DNA from: an uncultured Rikenella sp.
Lineage (GTDB): Bacteria > Bacteroidota > Bacteroidia > Bacteroidales > VadinHA17
NCBI GenBank assembly: GCA_964530645.1
Contig: CAZHAI010000001.1
Coordinates: 1-30,507 of the forward strand
Reading direction: 5' to 3'
Length of the DNA stretch: 30,507 nucleotides
The first letter of the stretch is position 1. Each line of letters begins with the position of its first letter. Made by a program: the position numbers and the translations under genes. The notes under the pieces were generated by a model. That model was not told where the DNA came from and did not search any database. It worked only from the letters and a program-made list of their open reading frames with translations. This document shows positions 14,941 through 29,061 of the stretch, one piece after another.

Positions 14941-16764
14941 TCAGCGGAAGGGAGTCACCCCTGGCGGATCAGGCTCGAATCGCGGTGGCCTGAGTCGCCT
15001 GAGTCCGTCAGCAGCAAACCATGATTTTTCAGAGTACGGAGGCGAGTTGGGATACCAGGCCAGCCTTATCTGAAGGGTGTTGAGGACAAGCTGATCATTT
15101 CTGATCCTGACTCCGGCACCAAGCGCCGGGACAGTATAATATCCGCCGTCCGTGAAGTCCTCATTTAAAAGAATCCCCATGTCAGCAAAGGCAAAGAGGA
15201 CGAACCTGAATCCGGCGACCGGTTTGTGAAGAAACAAGACAGGCTCGAGTGAAAAGGCTAAACGGGTCGCACCGCTGATGGAGTCATTGCTGAATCCCCT
15301 GATTAAATCTTTATTGTTCAGATACAGGCATTCATCATAGTAACGGTTGAATCCTCTTGTATAATGAAAGTTCACAAAGGTGCGCATCTTCGATCTTCCC
15401 GCTCTGAAAAGAGGGGTGAAGTACCGCATGCTGGCCTGCACCATGCCCTGTTCAGTGTCTCCGTGGTTGTAGAAGGTTGAAAATCCTGCCCCGGCATAAA
15501 TGTACCCTAACCTGGTCAGAATGTTACCGTATGTAAGCTTTACCCCGGCGTAAGTGCGCCATTTGAACTCATTCTTTTCCCTGCCCCCGAGAAGTTCAAG
15601 CATGTAGCCGTAGGGAATATCTTCTGTTCGTCCGTAACTGTATATCAAAGAGGTATTTATGAAGCGCTGCGAAGAAACGGCGAGGCTTGCTGTGGCTATC
15701 TTGTAGTTCTGTAGCTGGTAGTATGAGAAATCATTTATCTCCGGCCTGCGGAAAACGTTGTTGTGCATGTATCTGCCGGTGATGATAAGCCTTGTGACAC
15801 TGCTTCTGTCAAGCATGAATGACCTTGCTGCCCAGAAGTCCTGCCAGGTGAACCTCAGGGGAGCCGGAACAGCCATTGTATCCAGATCCTCATTGGTGTA
15901 GGTGAGCTTCACGGAAGCAGACCATGCATACTTTGTGGAGGAGGTTATGAAATCCCTGCTGTATACCCCGCCCATGCGGGTGGTCCCGAGGCCGTCACTG
16001 AATTCAAGCTCCATATCGGAGAAGGTGCGGGCAATGTTGCGTACCGCATACCTTAGCCCGATGCCGGGTGCGGAGTACTCATTAAAATTGTATGGTGTGC
16101 TGATTTCAAGTTCATGCCCCAGCCCCGCAAAATTTCTGCTGTAAAGATTTACAGTTCCGCTCCTGATGTCACTGATCCCGACGTTCACCCCGTAGGGATA
16201 GTTTTCCCGCACAACCACTGCCACGTCAACACTGTTGCTGTCAACCGGCACAACGGTAATTGTGGCATCATCAATGAAAGGAAGTTCTCTTAAAAGCCTT
16301 TCATTGTCAGAGAGTTCCAGTGAGGAGATTGTGTCTCCCTCGCGGAAAAGGAGGCTATGGCTCAGGACGAATCGCCGCGTTTTCGTGTAGGTGGAGTTCA
16401 TCCGGGACTCCACCTTTGAGGGATTGTATTCAAGCGGGTTGTCAATGTTTGAACCAAAGGCGTTCAGTCTGATTATCTCCCTGTTCCGGATTACCTTTCC
16501 CTCGTAGGCCTGGTAGGCACTTGTACTTGTCATCTTTTCCCTTGCTGATCCCGGGGGCGGGGAAGAGACTACGATCATGTCATAGAGCAGCCTGGTAAGT
16601 TTCCGCTTTTCAGCCTTTACCTTTAGTGAATCATAGAAAGCTTTTGAAATGGTATCCGGGGGAACAGAATCCTGACTGCGGACGTCCAAACCCGCAAGAA
16701 GGAGAACCAGTGTCAGAAGAAAACAAAAAAGTGTGTGAGTTGTGCTATTTGCGCATGGCTTCAC
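14941..16764 (-). CDS. Outer-membrane protein, Omp85 (BamA/TamA)-like, with POTRA-like domain
   Basis: Signal peptide; POTRA-like segment (GKVIRNREII...LLFREGDTISSLELSDNERLLRELPFIDDA); amphipathic beta-strand-rich C-terminal half. GTG start overlaps the upstream TGA (GTGA). Confidence 0.65.
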   Translation of the reverse strand: MKPCANSTTHTLFCFLLTLVLLLAGLDVRSQDSVPPDTISKAFYDSLKVKAEKRKLTRLLYDMIVVSSPPPGSAREKMTSTSAYQAYEGKVIRNREIIRLNAFGSNIDNPLEYNPSKVESRMNSTYTKTRRFVLSHSLLFREGDTISSLELSDNERLLRELPFIDDATITVVPVDSNSVDVAVVVRENYPYGVNVGISDIRSGTVNLYSRNFAGLGHELEISTPYNFNEYSAPGIGLRYAVRNIARTFSDMELEFSDGLGTTRMGGVYSRDFITSSTKYAWSASVKLTYTNEDLDTMAVPAPLRFTWQDFWAARSFMLDRSSVTRLIITGRYMHNNVFRRPEINDFSYYQLQNYKIATASLAVSSQRFINTSLIYSYGRTEDIPYGYMLELLGGREKNEFKWRTYAGVKLTYGNILTRLGYIYAGAGFSTFYNHGDTEQGMVQASMRYFTPLFRAGRSKMRTFVNFHYTRGFNRYYDECLYLNNKDLIRGFSNDSISGATRLAFSLEPVLFLHKPVAGFRFVLFAFADMGILLNEDFTDGGYYTVPALGAGVRIRNDQLVLNTLQIRLAWYPNSPPYSEKSWFAADGLRRLRPPRFEPDPPGVTPFR

Positions 16765-17474
16765 TGTGCCTTGGAATTGTCATCCAGAATATCATCGGAG
16801 TTAAACTGGAACCCGAGTCTCTTTCCCGTGATCAGCCTCGAGTGTTGAATCTTCGACTCAGCCTGGCCTACGGAAGCAATCTTGACGGTGTCATATGGCG
16901 GAACCAGCAGATCAAATTCAAGAGAATAGTTGATGGCGGTGCACACTATCTTTCTCAGTGATTCATTGCTGAAGGCTTCATTGCCGTAGTTGGTGAAAAG
17001 CATTCCCATCTGCCTCTTTCCTTCGACAAAATATTGGTTCTCATGGTTGATGAAGATACGGGCAATAAGGTATCCGAGGTCATCAAGCCTGGAGTATTTG
17101 AATGAGTCAGCAAGAAAGTTGTAAATGTTTATTATACCGCTGTATGCGTTGAACTTGTTCTTCTGAATGTAGGCGGTCTTCCATGCAGGATGTTCCCGGT
17201 CAAACTGGAAGATATTTGAGTGCATGCTGAAGAGCAGCAGGTCGCCGGCAACCTTTATCTGTGCGTCAAAGTTGCTCCTGTCAGTGTATTCCATCCTGAT
17301 TCTGGGGTCAACGCCGGTGAGGTTGCCGTTCACTTCCCTCGCGAGGTTCTTCAGGATGTCTTTCACCATCATGAAGGCCGTACCGGTATTGTCGAAGACC
17401 TTTTGCTTTAGTACCGACTTGCCTTTCAGGGTGTCAATTATCTGTGTGGTTTTCTGCGTTATCTCATCCGCCAT
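16761..17474 (-). CDS. Conserved Bacteroidales hypothetical protein (cytoplasmic)
   Basis: 237 aa ORF, no signal peptide. Motifs MHSNIFQF, YNFLADSFKY, EGKRQ and FDLLVPPYD resemble an unnamed Bacteroidales family I recall. Confidence 0.8.
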   Translation of the reverse strand: MADEITQKTTQIIDTLKGKSVLKQKVFDNTGTAFMMVKDILKNLAREVNGNLTGVDPRIRMEYTDRSNFDAQIKVAGDLLLFSMHSNIFQFDREHPAWKTAYIQKNKFNAYSGIINIYNFLADSFKYSRLDDLGYLIARIFINHENQYFVEGKRQMGMLFTNYGNEAFSNESLRKIVCTAINYSLEFDLLVPPYDTVKIASVGQAESKIQHSRLITGKRLGFQFNSDDILDDNSKAQ

Positions 17475-19244: not shown

Positions 19245-20744
19245 ATGAAAAGGCTTTGGTACATTATCCCGGCAGTAATTCTGACAGCAAGCGCATGTTC
19301 ATCTGTGCGCTTCGCGGGTGCCACAAACGATGACCTGTACTACAGGCCGTCAAATGCACCTGTTACAGCAGCCACGGTTCAGGACAGAACCGCCGGTCAG
19401 TACTATGACAATATATTTGCGGCTGATACCCTTATCGCAGATGAGTATATCCCTGACGGCGAATACCTGGAATATGCAGCCGGCGAGGCTAGTGTGGTGA
19501 ACAACTACTACGGCAGCCCCAGCGAAAGGATCTACATGTTCAATGATGACTATTTTTACCCTTACTGGAGAGACCCCTTCTACTACTCACCCTTCTCGAT
19601 GAGGCTCAACTTCGGTTACGGATACGGAAGCTGGAGCCCCTTCTCATCACGGTACTCCTGGGGATATGATCCTTTCTACTACGACATGTATTCACCTTAC
19701 TCATATTACAGCCCTTATGATTATTACTGGGGTGGATACCCATACTACGGCGGATACTACGGATACAATAATTATTACGGTTACAACAACTACTTCGGAT
19801 ACGGCGGTTACAACCCCTGGTATTCAGGCTATGGATGGCCTTCATACTATAACGGCAGCAATGACTATGTGGCAACAACCAGCCGCAGGGGAGGTTACAG
19901 CACCATGTCAAGAGGCACATCCTCCAACTCTGACAGCAGAAGCAAGTCCGGATATGCACCTTCCGGAACAACATACAACAGACGCGGCATCCCGGCAGCC
20001 GAATCAGCAACACCGGCCGGTGCCACAGGTGCCAACGCCAGGAGATCATCTCAGGAGGCCGGTACTGTAAGCAGGGAGGGGACCACTTCAGGTACGGTTA
20101 CCAGACCTGAATACACGAGGCGTGAGGCTGGCGAAACCACCGTCCGGAATCCGACCCAGACCCGCACACAGTCGCAGGTGAGGACTGAAACTCCGACCCA
20201 GAGCCGTACCCAGACGCCGGTCAGGACCGAAACATCCACACAGACACGTACACAGTCGCAGAATCCGGTAAGAACGCAGACCCAGACTGTCAACAGGCCT
20301 CAGTATCAGCCTTCCGAAAGGAGCTATACTCCGAGCTACAATAATCCCAGAGTGAGTTCAAGGCCTTCGTACAACACTACACGCAGCGGCGGCACGACTA
20401 CGCAAAGCAGCGGTACAGTATACAACAGAAGCACCTCCTCAGGCAGCAGCACACCGGCTTACACGCCCTCCAGATCGTCGTCATCCCAGGTGCAGTATTC
20501 TGCTCCCTCGCGCAGCAGCAGCGGATCTTCATACTCATCCGGCAGCAGCAATGGCGGATCGTCCTACTCAGGAGGCAGGAGCAGCGGCAGCAGCAGCAGC
20601 GGTTCATCCTATTCCTCCGGCGGCAGGAGCAGCTCCGGTTCGGGATCCTCATACTCAGGCGGAAGCTCCGGTTCAGTATCTTCCTCCTCATCCTCCTCAT
20701 CCTCCTCATCCGGGCGAAGCTCATCATCAGGCGGAAGAAGATAA
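19245..20744 (+). CDS. Lipoprotein with Tyr/Gly-rich and Ser/Arg/Thr-rich low-complexity regions
   Basis: Signal peptide II ending ILTASAC (Cys18), then NDDLYY; 36 Tyr in 112 residues (19533-19868); long Ser/Gly tail. Confidence 0.85.
   Translation: MKRLWYIIPAVILTASACSSVRFAGATNDDLYYRPSNAPVTAATVQDRTAGQYYDNIFAADTLIADEYIPDGEYLEYAAGEASVVNNYYGSPSERIYMFNDDYFYPYWRDPFYYSPFSMRLNFGYGYGSWSPFSSRYSWGYDPFYYDMYSPYSYYSPYDYYWGGYPYYGGYYGYNNYYGYNNYFGYGGYNPWYSGYGWPSYYNGSNDYVATTSRRGGYSTMSRGTSSNSDSRSKSGYAPSGTTYNRRGIPAAESATPAGATGANARRSSQEAGTVSREGTTSGTVTRPEYTRREAGETTVRNPTQTRTQSQVRTETPTQSRTQTPVRTETSTQTRTQSQNPVRTQTQTVNRPQYQPSERSYTPSYNNPRVSSRPSYNTTRSGGTTTQSSGTVYNRSTSSGSSTPAYTPSRSSSSQVQYSAPSRSSSGSSYSSGSSNGGSSYSGGRSSGSSSSGSSYSSGGRSSSGSGSSYSGGSSGSVSSSSSSSSSSSGRSSSSGGRR
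20151..20282 (+). repeat. Three degenerate ~14-aa coding repeats (PTQTRTQSQVRTET / PTQSRTQTPVRTET / STQTRTQSQNPVRTQT)
   Basis: Read directly from the translation; units start at 20151, 20193 and 20235 (42-nt period). Confidence 0.8.
20679..20711 (+). repeat. Poly-Ser tract (11 Ser) containing (TCCTCCTCA)x3
   Basis: 9-nt unit at 20682, 20691 and 20700. Confidence 0.85.
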
Positions 20745-20825
20745 ACAGTAACATTGATATAATTGATCCATGTTCCGCTCACCACGCAGGAGCAACAGGA
20801 ATTGTATATCTGAAAATTTAAGAAA

Positions 20826-22337
20826 ATGAAAAGAAAAATATTACTGATTGCCGCAGCAGCACTGCTCTTCCCTGTCTGGATGGCAGGACAGAACATGGAT
20901 GATGCACTCAGGTACTCCAGGCTATTCAACCAGGGTACTGCAAGATTCAACGGCATGAGCGGAGCCTTTACCGCCCTTGGAGGCGATGTTTCGGCAATTG
21001 GCCTTAACCCCGCTGCTGCAGGCCTCTTCCGTTCGACGGAAGTGACAATCACCCCGCAGGTCTTTTTCCGCGACATGAATACCGACTGGAACGGATTCGG
21101 GAGCGATGACAGCTATTCGGGAATCAATCTCGGGCAGATAGGCGTCGTATCATCAATCAGTACAGGGAGAACCTCCGGTCTCACAAACCTTTCAATCGCA
21201 TATTCCTTCAACAGGACAAACAACTATTACAGGTATGCTGTTGTAGACGGAGTCAGTGACGACGGATCCATGGCTGACTGGTGGGCATATGATGCCCGTG
21301 AGTTCAGAACCGGCGAACTTGGAGGCAAGGCATGGATGGCCTATGAAACCTATCTGATCGATACACTCCCGAACTTTCTGGATCAGTACGGATCCATCTA
21401 CTCATATTACGGGGAGGTTGATCCTGTTTACGGACAACAGGTAAAGAGAGTCATTGACAACTCCGGTTACAGCAACGAGCACACAGTGGCACTCGGTGCA
21501 AATCTTGGGGACAAAGTCTACCTCGGTGCCGGTTTTGGAATAACAAACCTTTCATATACAGGTCATTATACTCACAGTGAGATCGATGAAGCCCAGAATA
21601 CTTTTGATTTGCAGAACTTCACATACACTGACCATTTCAATGCAGTCGGATCAGGTTGGAACTTCAAGTTAGGGGCAATAGTCAGACCGTTTGAATCGTT
21701 ACGCATCGGAGTTGGATTCACCACCCCCACGATTTATAACATTGACGAGGTATGGTACAACAGTCTGTCTGTCAAACTTGACCGTAATACCCCTTCAAAC
21801 CCGGCTGATGACCTAAGCCCATTAGCAGAGCTTGACGACGACTACAGCTACCGCATCACAACCCCTTATCATCTCAATGCCGGCATTGCATACCAGATTG
21901 GTGACTTTGGCGTGATAAGTGCAGACTATGAATTGGTTGACTATGGTACTGCGAAGCTCAGCAGAGGCAGTGACGGTTATGACTTCAGCGCTGAAAACGA
22001 AGATCTTACAGCTGAAATGGGAAGCGCCGCCAACCTGAGGCTCGGTGCTGAGGCACGGTTAGGACCGCTGTATTTTCGCGGAGGGTACAGTTATCACGGC
22101 TCATCATTTACCGAAGGAACACTAAATGAGGATGCCACCTCTCACGGCTACAGCGCCGGGCTGGGGTTCAGGCAGGATAAATTCTACATAGATGCAGCTA
22201 TGGTGTGGCTTAACAGCTACGAAGCATATATGATGTTCCCCGATGATCCGAGACCTGATCCATTCTATAACAGTGATCCTGTCAATCTGAATACAAAGGA
22301 TAAGTACCTGTCGGTTACGGTCGGACTGAAATTCTAA
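20826..22337 (+). CDS. OmpP1/FadL/TodX-family outer-membrane beta-barrel
   Basis: Signal peptide; hatch motif GTARFNGMSGAFTALGGDVSAIGLNPAAAG; C-terminal beta-signal SVTVGLKF. Confidence 0.85.
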   Translation: MKRKILLIAAAALLFPVWMAGQNMDDALRYSRLFNQGTARFNGMSGAFTALGGDVSAIGLNPAAAGLFRSTEVTITPQVFFRDMNTDWNGFGSDDSYSGINLGQIGVVSSISTGRTSGLTNLSIAYSFNRTNNYYRYAVVDGVSDDGSMADWWAYDAREFRTGELGGKAWMAYETYLIDTLPNFLDQYGSIYSYYGEVDPVYGQQVKRVIDNSGYSNEHTVALGANLGDKVYLGAGFGITNLSYTGHYTHSEIDEAQNTFDLQNFTYTDHFNAVGSGWNFKLGAIVRPFESLRIGVGFTTPTIYNIDEVWYNSLSVKLDRNTPSNPADDLSPLAELDDDYSYRITTPYHLNAGIAYQIGDFGVISADYELVDYGTAKLSRGSDGYDFSAENEDLTAEMGSAANLRLGAEARLGPLYFRGGYSYHGSSFTEGTLNEDATSHGYSAGLGFRQDKFYIDAAMVWLNSYEAYMMFPDDPRPDPFYNSDPVNLNTKDKYLSVTVGLKF

Positions 22338-22344
22338 AAGTTGG

Positions 22345-22986
22345 TTAACAGTTGTCTGCATCCAGGGACCTCAGCAATAAAGCTCGGGTCCCTGGTCCGT
22401 TATTCAGGAGCAGGTCGATGATGCTCATCCCCGGGGTGAAACCGTGTCTTTCACCGAAGACCTGCGTGTACGGGATGTCTGAATAGCCTGCAATTTCTGA
22501 CTGTCTCTTCGGGGTGATGCTATAACGGTAATCATTCACCAGGCTGCCTTCGGGCTCGAATTTATCGGTATAATCAATCTGCACTCCCAGACCCAGTGCA
22601 TCGCAAACTGCGCCAAGCGCGGCGGTGTTCAGATCAAACAGGAAGCTGTACTGCCTGGTGATGACATCCCTGATAAGGTCATAGTAGTACTCGAAAAAAG
22701 GGGCAGCGGCATAAGCCGATGTTATACTCCCCAGGTGCTGCTCACGCCACCTTTTGCTCCCGTCAATCTCCAGCCCGCTTATGGGAGTCTTGTGAAATGA
22801 GCCCCTAAGAACAGGAACGATCAGGGGGAGGGAGCCGTTTGCTCCCATTATTATGCACCTGTTGCGGTAAGTCTGCCTGTGATAATTCTCGCATCTCTCG
22901 ATGATCACCCTTCTGCTCTTCGCTATGAGGCTGAAATACTCAGCGGGAGGGAAATATGCGGTGGAGAGAAGAACCTCCTCAGTCAT
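22345..22986 (-). CDS. WbqC-family protein
   Basis: STAYFPP, ENYHRQTYRNRC.I, W...H..SI.SAY..APFFEYY, Y.QVF...HGF.PGMSIIDLL.N.GP. Confidence 0.9.
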   Translation of the reverse strand: MTEEVLLSTAYFPPAEYFSLIAKSRRVIIERCENYHRQTYRNRCIIMGANGSLPLIVPVLRGSFHKTPISGLEIDGSKRWREQHLGSITSAYAAAPFFEYYYDLIRDVITRQYSFLFDLNTAALGAVCDALGLGVQIDYTDKFEPEGSLVNDYRYSITPKRQSEIAGYSDIPYTQVFGERHGFTPGMSIIDLLLNNGPGTRALLLRSLDADNC

Positions 22987-22991
22987 CTAAT

Positions 22992-23738
22992 TCAGAGGCT
23001 GTTGATCCGGCTTGCAGCAAAGCCTGCCCCGAACCCGTTGTCAATGTTCACCACTGTAACTCCTGCAGCACAACTCGTCAGCATGGCAAGAAGGGCTGAA
23101 ATGCCTTCAAACGACGCACCATATCCAACACTTGTAGGAACTGCGATCACCGGCATGTTCACAAGACCTCCGATTACGCTTGCAAGCGCACCTTCCATGC
23201 CGGCTATCACAACAGTTACCTTGCATGAGCGTATCTCAGGCAGCTTGTCAACCAGCCTGTGTATGCCGGCCACCCCGGCATCGTAGATCCTTACCACATC
23301 ATTGCCGAGAAGTTCGGCAGTGACTGCAGCTTCTTCAGCAACCGGGATGTCAGAGGTGCCTGCAGTGATTATAGCAATCTTTGTGGCCGGAGGAGTGATC
23401 TCCTTTCTCCTGATGCTGATTATGCGTGCAATCTCGTAGTAGACGGCATCTGGGAACGAGGGAGCTATGTAATCAAACATCTCTTTTCCTGCCCTTGTAC
23501 CTATTATATTATTGCCATGCCCTTCCATTGCATGAAAAATGGCCCTCACCTGCTCCGGCGTCTTGCCGGCGCAGTAAACTATCTCCGGATAACCCGTCCT
23601 GAGCTCACGGTGATGGTCAATGCGCGCGAATCCAAGGTCAGTATAAGGAAACTCTTTCAGCTTCTCCATGGCCTCCTCCACACTGACCGATTTGTTCCTG
23701 ATACCGTTTAGTATCTTCTCAAGCTCTGCTGCATTCAT
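22992..23738 (-). CDS. larB: NPN cofactor biosynthesis protein LarB (NaAD carboxylase/hydrolase)
   Basis: DHHRELRTGYPE, AGTSD.PVAEEA, DAGVAGIHRL, AGMEGAL, PTSVGYG, MLTSCAAG.VVNIDNGFGA. Confidence 0.95.
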   Translation of the reverse strand: MNAAELEKILNGIRNKSVSVEEAMEKLKEFPYTDLGFARIDHHRELRTGYPEIVYCAGKTPEQVRAIFHAMEGHGNNIIGTRAGKEMFDYIAPSFPDAVYYEIARIISIRRKEITPPATKIAIITAGTSDIPVAEEAAVTAELLGNDVVRIYDAGVAGIHRLVDKLPEIRSCKVTVVIAGMEGALASVIGGLVNMPVIAVPTSVGYGASFEGISALLAMLTSCAAGVTVVNIDNGFGAGFAASRINSL

Positions 23739-23740
23739 TA

Positions 23741-24529
23741 TTATTCCGTTTTATTCATGCTTCCGGTGCGGTAACCCTCAGCATCGATAGTAACATATTT
23801 GAAACCCAATGCCCTGATGGCTTCTGACAGGTTCACGCGCGTTTCCGTTATGGCCATCCGCTCGAAGTGTCCGGCTCTCAGCTCAATTCTGACAAGTTCA
23901 CCGTGCACTCTCACCCGGGCTCCGGGAAATCCTGCTGCTGTCACCAGGTTTTCAGCAGCCTCTGTTCTGCGCAGATCGCCCGTATTAATAACAGTATCAT
24001 GAGGGAACCTTGTCAGCAGGCAGGCATTTGACGGTTTGTCGCTTACCTCAAGTCCTGCTTCCCTGGCATATGCCCTTATCTCCGTTTTTGTGAGTTTGGC
24101 TTCAGCAAGAGGACTTCTGACACCGGCCTCCTTAAGAGCTTTCAGTCCGGGACGATACTCTTTGAGATCGTCGGCGTTTGTGCCGTCAAAGACGAAGGCA
24201 TATCCGTCATCACGAGCTGAGGCTGTAACCGCCTTCATCACCTCTGTCTTGCATAGATAACAGCGGTCCGGCGGATTGGAAAGCACCGCGACAGGGATCC
24301 CCAGCCCAAGTATCCTGTGCGTTACTCCGGCCTTCCTGCAGAAATGTCCGGCATCATCAACCTCTGAAGAGAACATGTACGGAGTGCTGACGGTTACAGC
24401 CATGACCCTGAGACCAGGAACGCCTGCGGCTACACTCACAAGAAAGGTGCTGTCAGTACCACCTGAAAGGGCGATCACAGCTGAACCGGCCTCCGCAAGG
24501 ATGGCCCTGAGGTTTTCGAGCTTATCCAT
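23741..24529 (-). CDS. larE: NPN cofactor sulfur transferase LarE (CxxC...C type)
   Basis: PP-loop LSGGTDS; RCYLCK (C90, C93); DGTNADD...YRPG; KPSNACLLTR (C170); RVRVHG; GYRTGSMN. True start is MDKLENL at 24529; the ORF-track extension to 24619 lies inside larC. Confidence 0.94.
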   Translation of the reverse strand: MDKLENLRAILAEAGSAVIALSGGTDSTFLVSVAAGVPGLRVMAVTVSTPYMFSSEVDDAGHFCRKAGVTHRILGLGIPVAVLSNPPDRCYLCKTEVMKAVTASARDDGYAFVFDGTNADDLKEYRPGLKALKEAGVRSPLAEAKLTKTEIRAYAREAGLEVSDKPSNACLLTRFPHDTVINTGDLRRTEAAENLVTAAGFPGARVRVHGELVRIELRAGHFERMAITETRVNLSEAIRALGFKYVTIDAEGYRTGSMNKTE

Positions 24530-24534
24530 TTGAC

Positions 24535-25896
24535 TTATTCCTTTCCGGTGAAAAGTGCCGATATCTCCTGCATTACCTGCTTCATCGGAAGGCCCGTCGC
24601 TGCTGCAATGGCTGCGCACCTGTCTGCCTCGGGCTTTACTGATACAAGCCTCTCACCGAAGAATGATTTTTTGATAACCACCTTCCCGAAACGGGTGTCA
24701 ATCTCCTCAAATTCCCTTTGCAGTGTCTCTTTGGTGAAGGGGGTGACTCTAAGACCGATTGTTGTTGATTCGGTAAACAGTATCTCCCTGACCGCATTTA
24801 GCTGGTCCTCTTCGCAGATGACGCTGAGAGTGAAGGCGGGCCTTCCCTTCTTCATTATGACAGGTGTATACCATACGTCGCCTGCACCCGCGGAAAAGAG
24901 TCTTCCTGTAAGGTATTCCGACAGTTCGGGGTTCATGTCATCAACATTGCACTGAACGAGCAGAGCCTGGTGACCCATGCCATGCTCCTCCGCAGTCTCA
25001 GCCAGATACACCCTGAGCATGTTTGGCCGCGATGGGTTGTCTTTGTGACCTATCCCGTAGCCGCTCTTCCTTATGATAAGATTCATTGATTGAGGAAGCG
25101 GCTCAGCCATCGCCGCTATTATTGCTGCCCCTGTCGGGGTTGTGGCCTCGAAACTTACTCCGCCGGTATGTACCGGGAAACCGCTGATTATTCTGGCAGT
25201 GGCCGGTGCTGGGACGGGCAGCAGGCCGTGCTTGCATTTCACCATGCCTCCACCGAGCTCAACAGCTGAAACATAAACCTTATCAACTCCAAGATCATCA
25301 AAACAGATTGCAGCTCCTACAATGTCAACGATTGAATCAATGGCTCCGACCTCGTGAAAATGAATCTCCTCTAGCGGTTTGTTGTGAACTGCTGCCTCCG
25401 CCTCCGCAATGTGACGGAAGATCTTCATTGACAGCTCTTTCACAGACAGGGGAAGGGTACTTGCATTAATTATCCTTTCGATGTCAGCCAGGTTCCGGTC
25501 AGGGTGGATCTCGTGGCCATGGCCATGGTCGTGGCTGTGGCCGTGCTCGTGGTCGTGCGCATGGTCCTGTTCATTGTCGTGCACATGGTCGTGCACATGG
25601 TCGTGGCTATGGTCATGCTCGTGGTCGTGCAAATGGTCGTGCTCGTGGTCGTGCAAATGGTCATGCTCGTGCTCGTGGAAATGCTCGTGATCCTCCACAC
25701 CTTCAGCAATGACTTTGACTTTGGTGCCTGCAATGCCGTGACGCTGGTCACGTGTAATCTCCAGCCGCCACCCTACTGTATTTAACTTCTGCAGGCCGCT
25801 GATCAGGGTCTCGCGACTGACACCCAGGTCTAGCATGGCCCCCAGGTTCATGTCGCCGCTTATGCCGGAAAAGCAGTCGTAGTACAGTATCTTCAT
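24535..25896 (-). CDS. larC: NPN cofactor nickel insertase (CTP-dependent cyclometallase) LarC, single uninterrupted ORF with His-rich insert
   Basis: DCFSGISGDM, HFHEVGAIDS, HG.LPVPAPAT, TPTGAA, NVDDMNPE, MKKGRP, ESTTIG.R, KPE. Confidence 0.95.
   Translation of the reverse strand: MKILYYDCFSGISGDMNLGAMLDLGVSRETLISGLQKLNTVGWRLEITRDQRHGIAGTKVKVIAEGVEDHEHFHEHEHDHLHDHEHDHLHDHEHDHSHDHVHDHVHDNEQDHAHDHEHGHSHDHGHGHEIHPDRNLADIERIINASTLPLSVKELSMKIFRHIAEAEAAVHNKPLEEIHFHEVGAIDSIVDIVGAAICFDDLGVDKVYVSAVELGGGMVKCKHGLLPVPAPATARIISGFPVHTGGVSFEATTPTGAAIIAAMAEPLPQSMNLIIRKSGYGIGHKDNPSRPNMLRVYLAETAEEHGMGHQALLVQCNVDDMNPELSEYLTGRLFSAGAGDVWYTPVIMKKGRPAFTLSVICEEDQLNAVREILFTESTTIGLRVTPFTKETLQREFEEIDTRFGKVVIKKSFFGERLVSVKPEADRCAAIAAATGLPMKQVMQEISALFTGKE
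25504..25689 (-). repeat. His-rich (HX)n tandem repeat within larC
   Basis: 29 His in 62 residues; 24-nt units at 25624-25647 and 25648-25671 (23/24 identical); perfect 12-nt duplication at 25576-25599. Confidence 0.92.
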
Positions 25897-25964
25897 TCTT
25901 TTTTAGTTTTTTTAACAATCGGCGCCCTGCCCGCATAATCGCTTGCGCCCGTGCTCTCAGGCTG

Positions 25965-26012
25965 CTAATATAAGAATACGGAGCCGATATATTGAAAAAA
26001 ATGTTTACTTTG
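25965..26012. promoter_or_regulatory. Candidate back-to-back promoters in the larC/DUF362 divergent region
   Basis: TATATTAG on - (25965-25972) and TTACTTTG on + (26005-26012), each with one mismatch to TAnnTTTG. Confidence 0.3.
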
Positions 26013-26050
26013 CATCTTCTCTTTTTAGGGGTAATATCTAACAGCAGGGA

Positions 26051-26977
26051 ATGAAAAGACGAAATTTCTTAAGGAGTTCGCTTGGTGCCGGACTGGCGGC
26101 AGGTACGTTCATGAGTTTTGGCAGGTACGAACAGGCATTTGCAGGAAAAAGACTGCCGGCAGGCGCCGATTATGACCTCATCGCAGTGATGGGAGGGGAG
26201 CCTGCAGCTATGTTTGACATGGGTATTCAGGCGATGGGAGGCATGGGGAGCTTCGTGAAAAAAGGGCAGAAAGTGCTGGTGAAACCCAATATAGGATGGG
26301 ATGTTGTGCCTGACAAGGGTGCAAACACAAACCCCGCCCTCGTTAAAAGGATAATCGAGCACTGCTACAGGGCAGGAGCAAAAGAGGTATATGTATTTGA
26401 CAACACCTGTGACAACTGGATAAAGTGCTACAAGAACTCCGGGATAGAACAGGCTGTGAAGGACGCGGGTGCAAAGATCGTCCCTGCAAATTCGGAGAGC
26501 TACTACCAGGAGGTTTCTATCCCCAACGGCAAGAAGCTGACGAAGACCAAGGTTCATGAGCTGGTTCTGGAGAGCGATGTCTTCATAAACGTACCTGTCC
26601 TGAAACATCACAGTTCAGCCATGATGACAGGAGCCCTTAAAGGGATGATGGGAGTTGTCTGGGACCGTGGATACTGGCACAGGAATAATCTCAACCAGTG
26701 CATCGCTGACTATGCGCTTTACCCGAAGAAGCCGCAGCTGAACGTTCTTGATGCTTACAACGTCATGATGCGCAACGGTCCCCGCGGTGTCTCAGTGGCT
26801 GACCTCTCCGCCATGAAATCACTTATGATCTCAACCGACTGGGTGGCAATCGATGCTGCCGGAGCAAAAATGATGGGCAAGGAGCCCTCATCAATAGAGC
26901 ATATTGCACTTGCTGCCGGAATGGGCATCGGCAAGATGGATCTTGCAGCAATGAATATCCACAGGATGAAAATGTAA
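26051..26977 (+). CDS. DUF362-family protein with Tat signal peptide
   Basis: MKRRNFLRSSLGAGLAAG twin-arginine leader; DUF362 motifs VLVKPNIGW, TNPALV, FINVPVLKHH...TGALKGMMG, D.VAIDA. Confidence 0.88.
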   Translation: MKRRNFLRSSLGAGLAAGTFMSFGRYEQAFAGKRLPAGADYDLIAVMGGEPAAMFDMGIQAMGGMGSFVKKGQKVLVKPNIGWDVVPDKGANTNPALVKRIIEHCYRAGAKEVYVFDNTCDNWIKCYKNSGIEQAVKDAGAKIVPANSESYYQEVSIPNGKKLTKTKVHELVLESDVFINVPVLKHHSSAMMTGALKGMMGVVWDRGYWHRNNLNQCIADYALYPKKPQLNVLDAYNVMMRNGPRGVSVADLSAMKSLMISTDWVAIDAAGAKMMGKEPSSIEHIALAAGMGIGKMDLAAMNIHRMKM

Positions 26978-26983
26978 CCCTGA

Positions 26984-28546
26984 ATGAGGTCCTCCGCCCT
27001 GAAACATATCCGAACCGTTTTTGCAGTTTTAATGCTGCTTCTGTTTGCATTTCTCTTCATTGATTTCAGGGGTCTTCTCGGGGAAAAGGCTTTTGCCCCT
27101 ATACTCTACCTGCAGTTCGTTCCCTCTTTCCTTAAATTTGTTATTGCGGGTGTGGCCGCCTCAACGGGCTTCATTGTGGTTTTGGTACTCACCGCACTTA
27201 CAGGCAGGACATACTGCTCGTTCCTCTGTCCCCTGGGGATACTGCAGGACGGCATCAGTCGTGTGGGAGGGCTTTTCAAGAGACGCTTCCGCAAATACGG
27301 ATACAAAAAGCCCTATACGATTCTGCGCTATTTTATCCTGGTGGTTACAGCAGCGATCCTGGCAGTCGGAGGCGTTTATGTCCTTACAATTCTTGACCCG
27401 TACAGCACCTTTGGCAGGTTCATGACCTATTTTGCGCAGCCTGTCGTACTCTTTATAAATAACCTGCTGGCATCCATCCTTGGTAAATTTGACATCTATA
27501 CAATTTACCGTGTTGACATTAAGCCTTATGAACTTGCTGTTTACATAGTTCCATCAGCATTCCTCCTGCTTGTCGGCATACTCTCATTCAGATACGGACG
27601 GCTCTACTGCAACACTGTCTGCCCGGTGGGAACACTTCTGGGGTTGCTGAGCAAGGTTTCGCTTTTCAGGATAAGGTTTGAAGATGAAAAGTGCACACGA
27701 TGCGGCCGGTGCGCAATGTCATGCAAATCATCCTGCATCGATTTCCTCAACAAGAGCGTCGATCTCAGCAGGTGCGTCAACTGCTTCAACTGCATTGACT
27801 CATGCAAGGAGAACGGCATGTCATATGGCCTGGTCCGGTTTAAGAAACCAGCCGCAGGTGAAGTCGGTACTGATCCGTCCAGGCGCAGTTTCATTGCCGG
27901 TTCACTGGTTCTGCTTGCCGGAGGATCTCAGCTGGTCAGGGCTCAGGGTACAACTCCCGCCCCCACAAAAGATTCCACAGTGAAGGAGGACAGGCTCTAC
28001 CCTGTTTCACCTCCGGGATCAGCAGGGCTTGAATCATTCACATCACGGTGCACCGCATGCACCCTCTGCGTCAACGCCTGCCCCACCAACGTACTCCAGC
28101 CTTCAGTAAGTGAATACGGATTTGCGGGAATCATGCAGCCCAGGATGGACTTTCACAGCGGCTTCTGCAACTATGACTGCAACCGCTGCACAGACGTCTG
28201 TCCGACCGGTGCCATAATGCCCCTCATGATTGAAGCCAAGAAGCTTACCCAAATCGGCAAGGCAGTCTTTATCAAGGATAATTGCATAGTCCATACCGAA
28301 AAGACAGCCTGTGGGGCGTGCTCCGAACATTGCCCTACCAAAGCATGCCACATGGTTCCCTATGAGGGCAAGCTGCTTATTCCGGAAGTAAGGGATGAGA
28401 TATGCGTCGGCTGCGGCGCTTGCGAATATGCCTGCCCGACAAGACCGTTCCGGTCCATCTTTGTTGACGGGAACCCCCTTCATGAAGCAGCCATCAAACC
28501 CGAGACGGAAGAGATGGAGGCAGTGCCATCCGAATTCCCCTTCTGA
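26984..28546 (+). CDS. Membrane polyferredoxin (NapH/MauN-like membrane domain fused to NapG/MauM-like multi-[4Fe-4S] domain)
   Basis: Several N-terminal TM helices; two CxxxCP motifs (YCSFLCP, YCNTVCP); six ferredoxin-type Cys clusters; internal SRRSFI plus hydrophobic segment. Confidence 0.9.
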   Translation: MRSSALKHIRTVFAVLMLLLFAFLFIDFRGLLGEKAFAPILYLQFVPSFLKFVIAGVAASTGFIVVLVLTALTGRTYCSFLCPLGILQDGISRVGGLFKRRFRKYGYKKPYTILRYFILVVTAAILAVGGVYVLTILDPYSTFGRFMTYFAQPVVLFINNLLASILGKFDIYTIYRVDIKPYELAVYIVPSAFLLLVGILSFRYGRLYCNTVCPVGTLLGLLSKVSLFRIRFEDEKCTRCGRCAMSCKSSCIDFLNKSVDLSRCVNCFNCIDSCKENGMSYGLVRFKKPAAGEVGTDPSRRSFIAGSLVLLAGGSQLVRAQGTTPAPTKDSTVKEDRLYPVSPPGSAGLESFTSRCTACTLCVNACPTNVLQPSVSEYGFAGIMQPRMDFHSGFCNYDCNRCTDVCPTGAIMPLMIEAKKLTQIGKAVFIKDNCIVHTEKTACGACSEHCPTKACHMVPYEGKLLIPEVRDEICVGCGACEYACPTRPFRSIFVDGNPLHEAAIKPETEEMEAVPSEFPF

Positions 28547-28638: not shown

Positions 28639-29061
28639 ATGAAACCTACACATATTGAACATATTGGAATTGCGGTAAATTCAATTGCCGAGGCCCTCCC
28701 TTTCTATGAAAAGGTGCTTGGCCTGAAATGCTACAACATAGAGGAGGTGGCTGACCAGAAGGTGAAGACCGCTTTTTTCATGATCGGGCAGACGAAGATC
28801 GAGCTGCTCGAGTCGACCGACCCTGAAGGACCAGTAGGCAAATTCATCGAGAAGAGGGGCGAGGGAATCCATCATATTGCATTTGCTGTTGACCGGATTG
28901 AGGAGAGGCTTCGCGAGGCAGAAGCTTCCGGCATCAGGCTCATCGATTCTGCACCGAGGAAGGGCGCGGAGGGACTCAGTATCGCATTCCTTCATCCGAA
29001 GTCGACTTTCGGAGTGCTTACCGAGCTTTGCGAGGACAAGAATAGCGAAAACAATAAATAA
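28639..29061 (+). CDS. mce: Methylmalonyl-CoA epimerase
   Basis: IEHIGIAV, KIELLE, KFIEKRGEGIHHIAF, AFLHPKST.GVL.EL. Confidence 0.95.
   Translation: MKPTHIEHIGIAVNSIAEALPFYEKVLGLKCYNIEEVADQKVKTAFFMIGQTKIELLESTDPEGPVGKFIEKRGEGIHHIAFAVDRIEERLREAEASGIRLIDSAPRKGAEGLSIAFLHPKSTFGVLTELCEDKNSENNK

What the first reader, a model, noticed from the sequence alone, without database searches (positions are those of the whole stretch)
26573..26680. DUF362 protein keeps LarA-like NPN-binding residues (His187, Lys197, His210)
Seen: SDVFINVPVLKH-H187-SSAMMTGAL-K197-GMMGVVWDRGYW-H210. As recalled, LarA reads roughly [13 protein letters not shown]174[10 protein letters not shown]184-SILPG...N-H200, where His174 is a catalytic base, Lys184 forms the thioamide tether to NPN and His200 ligates Ni. 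The two align without gaps from xD to the Lys, with the same 10-residue His-Lys spacing and shared A, S/T and G. The Ni-ligand His falls at +13 instead of +16. The strand carrying LarA His108 appears to be FDNTC here with no His, which would fit one-directional oxidation rather than two-base racemisation. I also recall, but cannot verify, that Pfam groups DUF362 with Lar_N (formerly DUF2088).
Basis: partly seen in the sequence, partly recalled or inferred. Interest (0 to 1): 0.85.

Follow-up and report, generated by a model that had tools for sequence, protein, structure and literature searches.

The report
LarA-like periplasmic DUF362 beside nickel-pincer genes
A secreted protein of unknown function is a trimmed relative of lactate racemase that keeps the racemase's cofactor-anchoring lysine and catalytic histidine, and because it sits between the genes that make the nickel-pincer cofactor and a membrane iron-sulfur protein, it is a good candidate for a new kind of nickel-pincer enzyme.

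Summary
ORF 26051-26977 (+) encodes a 308-aa DUF362 protein with a twin-arginine signal, and H187, K197 and H210 lie at 26573-26680 as described.

- **Fold:** the 19 best PDB matches of its AlphaFold model are all LarA-family structures.
- **Register:** alanine probes scored against the curated Pfam DUF362 model show that LarA H174, K184 and D163 occupy the same model columns as H187, K197 and D176. The score losses match to 0.1 bit.
- **Conservation:** the residues are a family-wide DUF362 signature. They are lost together in about nine divergent paralogues.
- **Third histidine:** H210 = LarA H200 is not shown. It lies at K+13 rather than K+16, and the model does not align them.
- **Missing LarA features:** H108, R75 and the LarA C-terminal domain are absent.

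**Context:**
- The gene is always followed by a NapH-NapG-type five-helix polyferredoxin.
- larC-larE-larB lie divergently upstream in 77 of 113 informative loci.
- No LarA homologue lies within 10 kb of any locus.

Best reading (about 0.45): a Tat-exported, nickel-pincer-loaded oxidoreductase wired to the quinone pool. Cofactor binding is inferred, not shown. No paper found links DUF362 to this cofactor beyond shared Pfam clan membership.

The parts
26051..26977 (+). DUF362-family gene (308 aa): a single-domain homologue of the LarA N-terminal domain and a candidate NPN-binding periplasmic oxidoreductase
   Evidence: Pfam PF04015 at 178 bits. AF2 pLDDT 93.7. Foldseek top 19 PDB hits are all LarA family, E 8e-7 to 1e-4.
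26051..26143 (+). Predicted twin-arginine (Tat) signal peptide, MKRRNFLRS...QAFA|GK, residues 1-31. The cleavage site is inferred.
   Evidence: Sequence read. Pfam TAT_signal E=0.015, below the cut-off. R3 is present in 120 of 126 relatives and R4 in 111.
26573..26680 (+). Signature segment D176-x3-N180-x4-K185-x-H187-x9-K197-N-x2-G201-x8-H210. H187 is 26609-26611, K197 is 26639-26641, H210 is 26678-26680.
   Evidence: Alanine probes against the Pfam DUF362 HMM cost 4.3 to 6.7 bits each. The matching LarA residues D163, H174 and K184 give identical losses. The residues are lost together in about 9 paralogues.
26984..28546 (+). Polytopic polyferredoxin, a NapH-NapG fusion. It has 4 TM helices with two CX3CP motifs and 2 cytoplasmic [4Fe-4S] motifs. 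An internal twin-arginine motif (SRRSFIAG, residue 298) with a fifth TM helix follows, then a C-terminal domain with four Cys clusters, predicted periplasmic. It starts 6 bp after the DUF362 stop.
   Evidence: Pfam Fer4_5 x2 plus Fer4 families. NCBIfam partial NapH/NapG/NapF hits. Topology and motifs. Matches the dual Sec/Tat polyferredoxin family of PMC5449189. A match to this protein follows the DUF362 gene in nearly all loci that extend downstream.
25897..26050 (.). 154-bp divergent intergenic region between larC and the DUF362 gene
   Evidence: ORF map. No Rfam hit and no promoter or terminator signal above background.
24535..25896 (-). larC (nickel insertion, CTP-dependent cyclometallase) with a His-rich stretch
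   Evidence: PF01969 at 469 bits. NCBIfam LarC1 at 214.7 bits and LarC2 at 141.7 bits.
23741..24619 (-). larE (ATP-dependent sulfur transferase) with SGGTDS plus a CXXC-C cysteine pattern
   Evidence: TIGR00268 at 268.8 bits. Motifs read from the translation. Motif meaning from PMC9283937.
22992..23738 (-). larB (NaAD carboxylase/hydrolase)
   Evidence: NF033503 at 297 bits.

Best explanation
ORF 26051-26977 encodes a Tat-exported DUF362 protein. It is a trimmed, single-domain relative of lactate racemase LarA.

It keeps, at exactly homologous positions, the LarA catalytic histidine (H174 = H187) and the lysine that LarA uses to tether the nickel-pincer nucleotide (NPN) through a thioamide (K184 = K197). 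It also has a nearly invariant histidine (H210) close to where LarA has its nickel ligand.

Proposed mechanism:
1. LarB, LarE and LarC, encoded divergently next door, make NPN in the cytoplasm.
2. NPN is loaded onto K197, with H210 completing the nickel coordination.
3. The folded holoprotein is exported by Tat.
4. In the periplasm it moves a hydride between NPN C4 and an unknown substrate, with H187 as the single acid/base.
5. The two electrons pass to or from the menaquinone pool through the periplasmic Fe-S domain of the co-transcribed NapH-NapG-type polyferredoxin.

Shown here:
- LarA-like fold and homology.
- The register of H187, K197 and D176.
- Family-wide conservation and joint loss of the site residues.
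- The twin-arginine motif.
- Obligatory pairing with the polyferredoxin.
- Frequent lar adjacency with no LarA nearby.

Inferred:
- NPN binding and the role of H210.
- Export as a holoenzyme.
- Hydride chemistry.
- The substrate and the direction of electron flow.
For: **Fold.** The AF2 model has pLDDT 93.7. The top 19 Foldseek PDB hits are exclusively LarA-family structures (2yjg, 7s91, 8ezh, 6c1w, 5huq, 9eia, 9q3j, 4nar). They have TM 0.35-0.52 normalised to the query, and the next hits have E > 2e-3. The order of secondary-structure elements is collinear with an AF2 LarA model.

**Sequence homology.** True LarA proteins hit the Pfam DUF362 HMM above its cut-off (26.1 bits, E = 1e-5). Both families sit in clan CL0471.

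**Register.** Losses against the DUF362 HMM are identical for H187A/H174A (6.7 bits), K197A/K184A (5.6) and D176A/D163A (4.3). hhalign gives the same register.

**Conservation.** H187 is present in 118 of 126 relatives, K197 in 119 and H210 in 116. In 108 sequences N80, K185, H187, K197, R206 and H210 all occur together. About 9 divergent paralogues lose them together (Fisher p 4e-8 to 4e-11, uncorrected for phylogeny).

**Context.**
- Complete larB, larE and larC lie divergently upstream.
- The same arrangement occurs in 77 of 113 informative loci. These form one large Bacteroidales clade plus L132, L136 and L141 elsewhere on the tree; L136 and L141 have different flanking genes (L132 is too short to show its flanks).
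- No LarA homologue lies within 10 kb of any of the 142 loci fetched by then.

**Export.** A Tat signal is present, and the protein has no Fe-S-type cysteine motif of its own. Only C105 is well conserved. That fits a cofactor loaded in the cytoplasm.

**Literature.** About 15% of genomes have larBCE but no larA (PMC11796402). Two non-LarA users were found by the same neighbourhood logic (PMC13524815).
Against: - H210 is not aligned to LarA H200 by the Pfam HMM (H200A costs only 1.1 bits) or by hhalign. Spacing from the lysine is 13 rather than 16 residues, and LarA homologues keep 16 (PMC7583248).
- LarA R75, H108 and the whole C-terminal domain (Q295, K298) have no counterpart. D72 is N80 at best.
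- There is no Lar_N or LarA_C hit, even at E = 10.
- 36 of 113 informative orthologous loci have no lar gene within reach. These include cultured Prolixibacter denitrificans and Rosettibacter firmus. I could not check whether those genomes carry lar genes elsewhere.
- Most lar-linked loci belong to one syntenic clade, so there are few independent events.
- NPN is known only as a two-electron hydride carrier. Handing electrons to one-electron Fe-S clusters has no precedent.
- Clustering of the three residues in one pocket could not be measured.
- The lar genes might serve an enzyme encoded elsewhere in the genome.
Confidence: 0.45

Rival explanations
1. The protein is a LarA-fold redox enzyme that does not use NPN. 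The conserved K78/N80/D176/K185/H187/K197/H210 site binds another ligand: a simple metal, another nucleotide-like cofactor, or the substrate itself. Electrons come directly from the polyferredoxin. The lar genes next door serve some other enzyme, and the adjacency is inherited gene order.
For: - The triad is a signature of the whole, very large DUF362 family. That family is classically tied to Fe-S domains that are fused, nested or adjacent.
- The DUF362-polyferredoxin pair is near-universal, whereas lar linkage is not: 36 of 113 informative loci lack it.
- The LarA residues R75, H108 and H200 are not matched.
Against: - The retained residues are exactly LarA's cofactor-tethering Lys and catalytic His, at the same positions.
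- The divergent larC-DUF362 arrangement survives down to about 55% identity with different flanks, and even when only larC remains (L136).
- No other candidate NPN user lies within 10 kb.
- A Tat signal on a protein with no other recognisable cofactor motif needs an explanation.
Confidence: 0.3
2. The protein binds NPN but works like LarA, as a periplasmic racemase or epimerase with no net redox change. The polyferredoxin would be functionally unrelated, or would only keep the cofactor in the right redox state.
For: Every characterised member of the LarA superfamily is a racemase or epimerase of 2-hydroxy acids. LarA homologues with a single catalytic His exist and bind NPN (PMC12611868).
Against: - The second catalytic His (H108) and the substrate-binding C-terminal domain are missing.
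- The gene is followed by the polyferredoxin in nearly every locus, 6 bp downstream in the window, which argues for real electron exchange.
Confidence: 0.1
3. The protein binds NPN but is not an enzyme. It would act as a periplasmic carrier, storage or electron-relay module that uses the Ni-S centre, docked on the polyferredoxin.
For: The site lacks LarA's lid domain, so the cofactor would be exposed. A covalent tether would suit an extracytoplasmic cofactor (inference).
Against: The catalytic His equivalent (H187) and several further polar residues (K78, N80, D176, K185, D234) are as conserved as the tether. That looks like a catalytic pocket.
Confidence: 0.07
4. The resemblance of the three residues to LarA is coincidental. 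An H-x9-K spacing is common by chance, and these residues would be merely structural.
For: Profile-profile E-values are weak (0.13-0.16). The subfamily HMM does not detect LarA (at most 3.7 bits).
Against: - Score decrements through an independent curated HMM are identical.
- The significant Foldseek hits (E up to 1e-4) are all LarA-family structures.
- LarA scores above the DUF362 cut-off.
- The site residues are lost together.
Confidence: 0.03

Closest known systems
LarA lactate racemase and LarA homologues (Pfam Lar_N PF09861 + LarA_C PF21113; PDB 5HUQ, 6C1W, 2YJG, 6D6Z, 4NAR, 9EIA)
   Same: Same fold for the N-terminal domain and the same Pfam clan. The catalytic His174, the NPN-tethering Lys184 and Asp163 sit at identical positions. 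The gene is linked to larB, larE and larC.
   Different: - About 270 mature residues against about 424.
- No LarA_C domain (Q295, K298), no His108 and no Arg75.
- The third His lies at K+13, not K+16.
- Tat-exported rather than cytoplasmic.
- Always paired with a membrane polyferredoxin.
- No Lar_N HMM hit.
Single-histidine LarA homologues (LarA_Bw / LarA_Sp; PDB 9Q3J, 9Q3K, 9Q2U; PMC12611868)
   Same: These NPN enzymes of the LarA fold lack one of the two catalytic histidines, so they show that a one-His site can still hold NPN. They are among the Foldseek hits.
   Different: They are full two-domain LarA proteins, cytoplasmic and octameric, with Asn replacing the His. They have no Fe-S partner.
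NphT and related NPN-dependent aldo-keto reductases (PMC13524815); NPAD-dependent ornithine cyclodeaminase cited there
   Same: They were found by the same logic: larBCE clusters without larA. They carry a His/Lys pair for Ni ligation and a covalent tether, and they extend NPN chemistry beyond racemisation.
   Different: They have a TIM-barrel or other fold unrelated to LarA, are cytoplasmic, and have no electron-transfer partner.
NapGH quinol dehydrogenase and the dual Sec/Tat polytopic polyferredoxin (MLMS-1 Q1NSB0; PMC5449189)
   Same: The downstream gene has the same architecture: 4 TM NapH part, a twin-arginine motif before TM5, and a NapG-like periplasmic 4x[4Fe-4S] domain. The expected role is to link the quinone pool to a periplasmic redox enzyme.
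   Different: The known partner of NapGH is the nitrate reductase NapAB. Here the partner is a DUF362 protein of unknown activity.
DUF362 family at large (PF04015), including forms with nested or fused ferredoxin domains and CBM9/dockerin fusions
   Same: The window protein is a clear member (178 bits) and carries the family signature residues.
   Different: This subfamily has a Tat signal and a separate polyferredoxin rather than a fused Fe-S domain, and it is lar-linked. No DUF362 member has a solved structure or a known activity.

Membership tests
DUF362 (Pfam PF04015) | Match to the family HMM above the gathering score | tested here: met
   178 bits against a cut-off of 24. Residues 75-272 cover model positions 1-199 of 200.
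LarA superfamily (Lar_N + LarA_C) | Match to the Lar_N (PF09861) HMM | tested here: not met
   No hit even at E <= 10. The subfamily HMM scores LarA at 3.7 bits or less.
LarA superfamily (Lar_N + LarA_C) | C-terminal domain LarA_C carrying Q295/K298 | tested here: not met
   No PF21113 hit. The protein ends about 40 residues after the point equivalent to the end of the LarA N-domain.
LarA superfamily (Lar_N + LarA_C) | LarA N-domain fold | tested here: met
   Foldseek top 19 hits are all LarA family, E 8e-7 to 1e-4, TMq 0.35-0.52. The order of secondary-structure elements is collinear.
LarA superfamily (Lar_N + LarA_C) | Lys184, the thioamide tether to NPN | tested here: met
   K197A and LarA K184A both cost 5.6 bits against the same HMM. 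K is present in 119 of 126 relatives.
LarA superfamily (Lar_N + LarA_C) | His174, catalytic acid/base | tested here: met
   H187A and LarA H174A both cost 6.7 bits. H is present in 118 of 126 relatives.
LarA superfamily (Lar_N + LarA_C) | His200, the nickel ligand, 16 residues after the Lys | tested here: inconclusive
   A conserved His (H210, 116 of 126) exists at K+13. LarA H200A costs only 1.1 bits against 5.0 for H210A. hhalign puts H210 opposite M216. DSSP puts it about one turn earlier.
LarA superfamily (Lar_N + LarA_C) | His108, the second catalytic base | tested here: not met
   There is no His in 116-127 (DNTCDNWIKCY). LarA H108A does not lower the DUF362-HMM score (+0.8).
LarA superfamily (Lar_N + LarA_C) | Asp72 and Arg75 (catalytic residue and NPN phosphate contact) | tested here: inconclusive
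   hhalign aligns N80 with D72 and finds no Arg opposite R75, but confidence is low. This region lies outside the LarA stretch matched by the DUF362 HMM.
LarA superfamily (Lar_N + LarA_C) | Binds the nickel-pincer nucleotide | not testable with these tools
   This needs protein mass spectrometry and metal analysis after co-expression with LarB/E/C.
NPN biosynthesis cluster (LarB, LarE, LarC) | All three biosynthetic genes present and intact next to the candidate user | tested here: met
   NCBIfam equivalog hits above cut-off: LarB 297 bits, LarE 268.8, LarC1 214.7 and LarC2 141.7.
Tat substrates | N-terminal twin-arginine motif (S/T-R-R-x-F-L-K), h-region and AxA site | tested here: met
   KRRNFLRS, then a hydrophobic stretch, then AFA|G. 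RR is conserved in relatives. The Pfam TAT_signal hit alone is sub-threshold (E = 0.015). Export itself is not tested.
Dual Sec/Tat polytopic polyferredoxin (NapH-NapG fusion) | Four NapH-type TM helices with CX3CP motifs, a twin-arginine motif directly before TM5, and a C-terminal 4-cluster ferredoxin domain | tested here: met
   TM helices at 8-26, 52-70, 118-136 and 184-202. CX3CP at 78 and 209. SRRSFIAG at 298. Cys clusters at 356-484. Partial NapH/NapG/NapF NCBIfam hits. Family description in PMC5449189.

The most novel reading that the evidence does not exclude
DUF362 as a whole would be a second, redox-coupled branch of nickel-pincer (NPN) enzymes. This is a very large family whose members nearly always travel with fused, nested or neighbouring Fe-S domains. 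A LarA-type Lys/His site would hold NPN, and hydride chemistry would be coupled to Fe-S and quinone electron transfer, here outside the cytoplasm after Tat export. That would explain part of the roughly 15% of genomes that make NPN but lack LarA. It would also give NPN a role in respiration-type electron transport.
Probability: 0.3. Interest if true: 0.85.

Novelty: new variant of a known kind. Interest (0 to 1): 0.65.

Why it matters
Which proteins use the nickel-pincer cofactor in organisms that make it but lack LarA is an acknowledged open question (PMC11796402, PMC13524815). Only two non-LarA users have been reported so far.

DUF362 is a large family with no known function and no solved structure. 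The LarA field has used it only as an outgroup.

This work shows that DUF362 keeps LarA's cofactor-tethering lysine and catalytic histidine at homologous positions. It also shows that one subfamily sits between the cofactor biosynthesis genes and a quinone-linked polyferredoxin, behind a Tat signal. Together these make a concrete, cheap experiment possible: co-expression with LarBEC followed by intact-mass and nickel analysis.

If the result is positive, it would:
- assign a cofactor to a major DUF;
- extend nickel-pincer chemistry from isomerisation to net redox reactions coupled to Fe-S chains;
- provide the first extracytoplasmic NPN enzyme.

Tried and rejected
- **PDB by sequence:** phmmer and a 126-sequence profile against PDB sequences found no meaningful hit. 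No DUF362 structure exists to compare with.
- **Subfamily HMM against 123 LarA sequences:** scores were 3.7 bits or less.
- **hhalign of the DUF362 alignment against LarA** (single sequence, a 123-sequence alignment and a 27-sequence alignment): E 0.13-0.16, not significant alone. I used it only for the register.
I repeated it with a narrower alignment.
- **Longer DUF362 representatives** were scanned for informative fused domains. None were found, and the extra length probably reflects mis-called starts.
- **Rfam and promoter/terminator scans** of the lar-DUF362 region gave nothing above background.
- **A Pfam scan of the small membrane protein** upstream in lar-less loci gave no hit.
- **LarA or distant DUF362 paralogues** in the 142 loci fetched by then: none.
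- **3D clustering of H187, K197 and H210:** model coordinates are not exposed, so this could not be done.
- **Whole-genome check for lar genes** in the lar-unlinked organisms was not possible, because collection scans were exhausted and only 10-kb flanks are held.
- **A deletion/His-scan probe to test H210 = H200:** rejected, because any His placed at K+13 would score by construction.
Full report
**1. What is at the coordinates**

ORF 26051-26977 (+) encodes 308 residues. Translating 26573-26680 gives SDVFINVPVLKHHSSAMMTGALKGMMGVVWDRGYWH. H187, K197 and H210 lie at 26609-26611, 26639-26641 and 26678-26680, and FDNTC starts at residue 116.

The protein matches Pfam DUF362 at 178 bits (cut-off 24). 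It has no Lar_N or LarA_C hit, even at E = 10.

Its N-terminus, MKRRNFLRS...QAFA|GK, is a twin-arginine signal. The Pfam TAT_signal hit alone is sub-threshold (E = 0.015). The arginines are present in 120 and 111 of 126 relatives.

**2. Surroundings**

- Divergently upstream, on the minus strand, lie larC (24535-25896), larE (23741-24619) and larB (22992-23738). All score above NCBIfam equivalog cut-offs. A WbqC-like gene follows them.
- Six bases after the DUF362 stop starts a 520-aa protein (26984-28546). It has four NapH-type transmembrane helices, two CX3CP motifs and two [4Fe-4S] motifs. An internal SRRSFIAG twin-arginine motif with a fifth hydrophobic helix comes next, then a NapG/NapF-like domain with four cysteine clusters.
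- This is the architecture of the polytopic polyferredoxin that Tooke et al. showed to be inserted jointly by Sec and Tat, with four clusters outside the cytoplasm (PMC5449189).
- The rest of the window is ordinary chromosome: pyruvate kinase, shikimate genes, ProRS, TilS and a sensor kinase. There is no LarA.

**3. Is it related to LarA?**

Sequence searches against PDB found nothing. An AlphaFold model built on 126 diverse relatives is confident, with pLDDT 93.7.

Its 19 best Foldseek matches in PDB are all LarA-family structures: lactate racemases, malate racemase, the broad-spectrum racemase, single-His LarA homologues and 4NAR. Their E-values run from 8e-7 to 1e-4. After them comes a gap to generic Rossmann dehydrogenases at E > 2e-3.

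The order of strands and helices is collinear with an AlphaFold model of LarA through the whole N-terminal domain.

True LarA proteins hit the Pfam DUF362 HMM above its gathering score (26.1 bits, E = 1e-5, LarA 82-245 against model positions 18-171). The literature confirms that DUF362 and DUF2088/Lar_N share clan CL0471 (PMC11770544; PMC7955657). The homology is real, and it was already known at clan level.

**4. Are the three residues the LarA residues?**

Profile-profile alignments gave H187 = H174, K197 = K184 and D176 = D163 each time, but with weak E-values of about 0.14. I therefore used the curated Pfam DUF362 HMM as an independent ruler and scored single alanine substitutions.

| Window protein (wild type 178.0 bits) | Change (bits) | True LarA (wild type 26.1 bits) | Change (bits) |
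|---|---|---|---|
| H187A | -6.7 | H174A | -6.7 |
| K197A | -5.6 | K184A | -5.6 |
| D176A | -4.3 | D163A | -4.3 |
| H210A | -5.0 | H200A | -1.1 |
| K185A | -6.2 | H108A | +0.8 |
| K78A | -5.5 | D72A, R75A, S173A, M216A | about 0 |
| N80A | -4.9 | | |
| D234A | -3.6 | | |
| H186A | -1.1 | | |

The identical decrements mean that H174, K184 and D163 of LarA occupy the same model columns as H187, K197 and D176. The register for the catalytic His and the cofactor-tethering Lys is therefore established.

It is not established for the third His. H210 lies 13 residues after the Lys and H200 lies 16. All LarA homologues described keep 16 (PMC7583248). In both models a short helix spans K+9 to K+14, so H210 sits in its last turn and H200 just beyond it (the LarA model is low-confidence there). 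H210 may be an analogous ligand shifted by about one turn, but this is inference.

**5. Conservation**

The probe experiment also shows that the triad is a signature of the whole DUF362 family, not only of lar-linked members.

Among 126 relatives down to 33% identity, H187 is present in 118, K197 in 119 and H210 in 116. In 108 sequences N80, K185, H187, K197, R206 and H210 all occur together.

About nine mutually divergent paralogues (29-48% identical to one another) are well aligned in the flanks and have lost these residues together. Fisher p is 4e-8 to 4e-11, not corrected for phylogeny. The residues therefore behave as one functional unit.

**6. Genomic association**

I collected 142 orthologous loci by scanning genomes and metagenomes, and four more through two look-ups of cultured relatives.

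- A match to the polyferredoxin follows the DUF362 gene in nearly all loci that extend downstream, including all 22 lar-less loci with long flanks.
- Of the 142 scanned loci, 113 are informative. In 77 of these, one or more of larC, larE and larB lie divergently upstream; the longer loci carry all three.
- Those 77 form one large Bacteroidales clade plus three loci elsewhere on the tree. The flanking genes differ in L136 and L141 (L132 is too short to show its flanks), and L136 keeps only larC.
- No LarA homologue lies within 10 kb of any of the 142 scanned loci.
- The other 36 informative loci have no lar gene in reach, and neither do the cultured Prolixibacter denitrificans and Rosettibacter firmus. 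I could not test whether those genomes carry lar genes elsewhere.
- The linkage is suggestive, but it rests on few independent events.

**7. Mechanism**

The protein is exported folded, has no Fe-S-type cysteine pattern of its own, and is obligatorily paired with a protein that places four Fe-S clusters in the periplasm and connects to the quinone pool.

The most economical reading has these steps:
1. NPN is made by LarB/E/C.
2. It is attached to K197 in the cytoplasm. A covalent tether would suit an extracytoplasmic cofactor.
3. The holoenzyme leaves by Tat.
4. It catalyses hydride transfer with H187 as the only acid/base.
5. Electrons are exchanged with the polyferredoxin.

The direction is open. 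The weak point is chemical: no precedent exists for NPN passing electrons singly to Fe-S clusters.

**8. Rivals**

- The main rival is that DUF362 uses the same ancestral pocket for another ligand and that the lar genes serve another enzyme. It is favoured by the family-wide nature of the signature, the incomplete lar linkage, and the missing R75, H108 and H200 equivalents.
- A LarA-like periplasmic racemase is unlikely, given the missing second His and lid domain and the near-invariable redox partner.
- Chance resemblance is excluded.

**9. Comparison with the known, and novelty**

The protein is a clear member of DUF362. It fails membership of the LarA family proper: no Lar_N or LarA_C match, and no H108 or K298. 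Yet it shares LarA's fold and two of its three hallmark N-domain residues.

Full-text searches found no paper that proposes DUF362 as an NPN-binding family. DUF362 appears only as an outgroup to LarA trees and as a partner of Fe-S, CBM9 and dockerin domains. The recent search for non-LarA users deliberately set aside LarA homologues (PMC13524815).

The field states that about 15% of genomes have larBCE without larA, many of them cyanobacteria (PMC11796402). The window protein also weakly matches the cyanobacterial Npun_F2552 family, a lead I could not follow.

I therefore rate this as a new variant of a known kind. It is computationally well founded as homology. It is plausible but unproven as an NPN enzyme, and it is directly testable.

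Noticed in passing
window 26984-28546 (+): The gene after DUF362 is a NapH-NapG fusion with an internal twin-arginine motif (SRRSFIAG, residue 298) before a fifth TM helix. This is the architecture of the dual Sec/Tat-inserted polyferredoxins of Tooke et al. 2017. A strict RR-motif pattern matches 69 of 110 orthologues. Others, such as L047, have a KR variant.
   Followed up: partly
window 23741-24619 (-): LarE carries SGGTDS, a CYLC (CXXC) motif and a later Cys (SNACLL). This CXXC-C pattern was described for catalytic [4Fe-4S]-dependent LarE, not the sacrificial L. plantarum type. The listed GTG start overlaps larC, and the family match begins near residue 33, so the true start is probably the internal Met.
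   Followed up: partly
window about 25540-25700 (larC, - strand): The His/Asp/Glu-rich stretch of LarC (HEHFHEHEHDHLHDHEHDH...) is encoded by repetitive CAT/GAC/CAC codons. These create several spurious ORFs in other frames and a sub-threshold Rfam miRNA hit at 25539-25613.
   Followed up: no
window 22345-22986 (-): A WbqC-like gene (PF08889) lies directly downstream of larB on the same strand and is conserved there throughout the main Bacteroidales clade. It is not detected in L141, L136 or L132 (L132 is too short upstream to tell). Its role in a lar context is unknown.
   Followed up: partly
proteins P0142, P0147, P0160, P0162, P0169, P0207, P0221, P0223, P0231 (alignment A1): About nine divergent DUF362 paralogues, most with a twin-arginine signal, have jointly lost most or all of N80, K185, H187, K197 and H210 while aligning well in the flanks. 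They may be non-catalytic partner subunits. Their genomic context could not be retrieved.
   Followed up: partly
L091 9413-9928 (-), L145 9378-9911 (-), and 6 other lar-less loci: In 8 of 22 lar-less loci a 171-177 aa multi-pass membrane protein with no Pfam hit sits divergently upstream of DUF362, where larC sits in the lar-linked clade.
   Followed up: partly
L136 2881-4158 (-): In this deep-branching locus only larC remains next to the DUF362 gene. The next genes are DUF4294, a LigT-like phosphoesterase and a diphthamide-synthase-like PP-loop protein, not larE or larB.
   Followed up: partly
window 28639-29061 (+): A methylmalonyl-CoA epimerase gene (TIGR03081, 153.7 bits) follows the polyferredoxin. 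It is conserved at that position in the main clade but not in the outlying lar-linked loci.
   Followed up: no
window 14941-17474 (-) and 19245-22337 (+): Four sizeable ORFs (607, 237, 499 and 503 aa) have no significant Pfam or NCBIfam match. The 499- and 503-aa pair is syntenic across the Bacteroidales clade.
   Followed up: no
window 26051-26977 (+), NCBIfam result: The protein gives a sub-threshold match (66 bits, E = 4e-18) to the cyanobacterial Npun_F2552 family. Cyanobacteria are named in the literature as organisms that have larBCE but no larA, so this may be worth a neighbourhood check.
   Followed up: no
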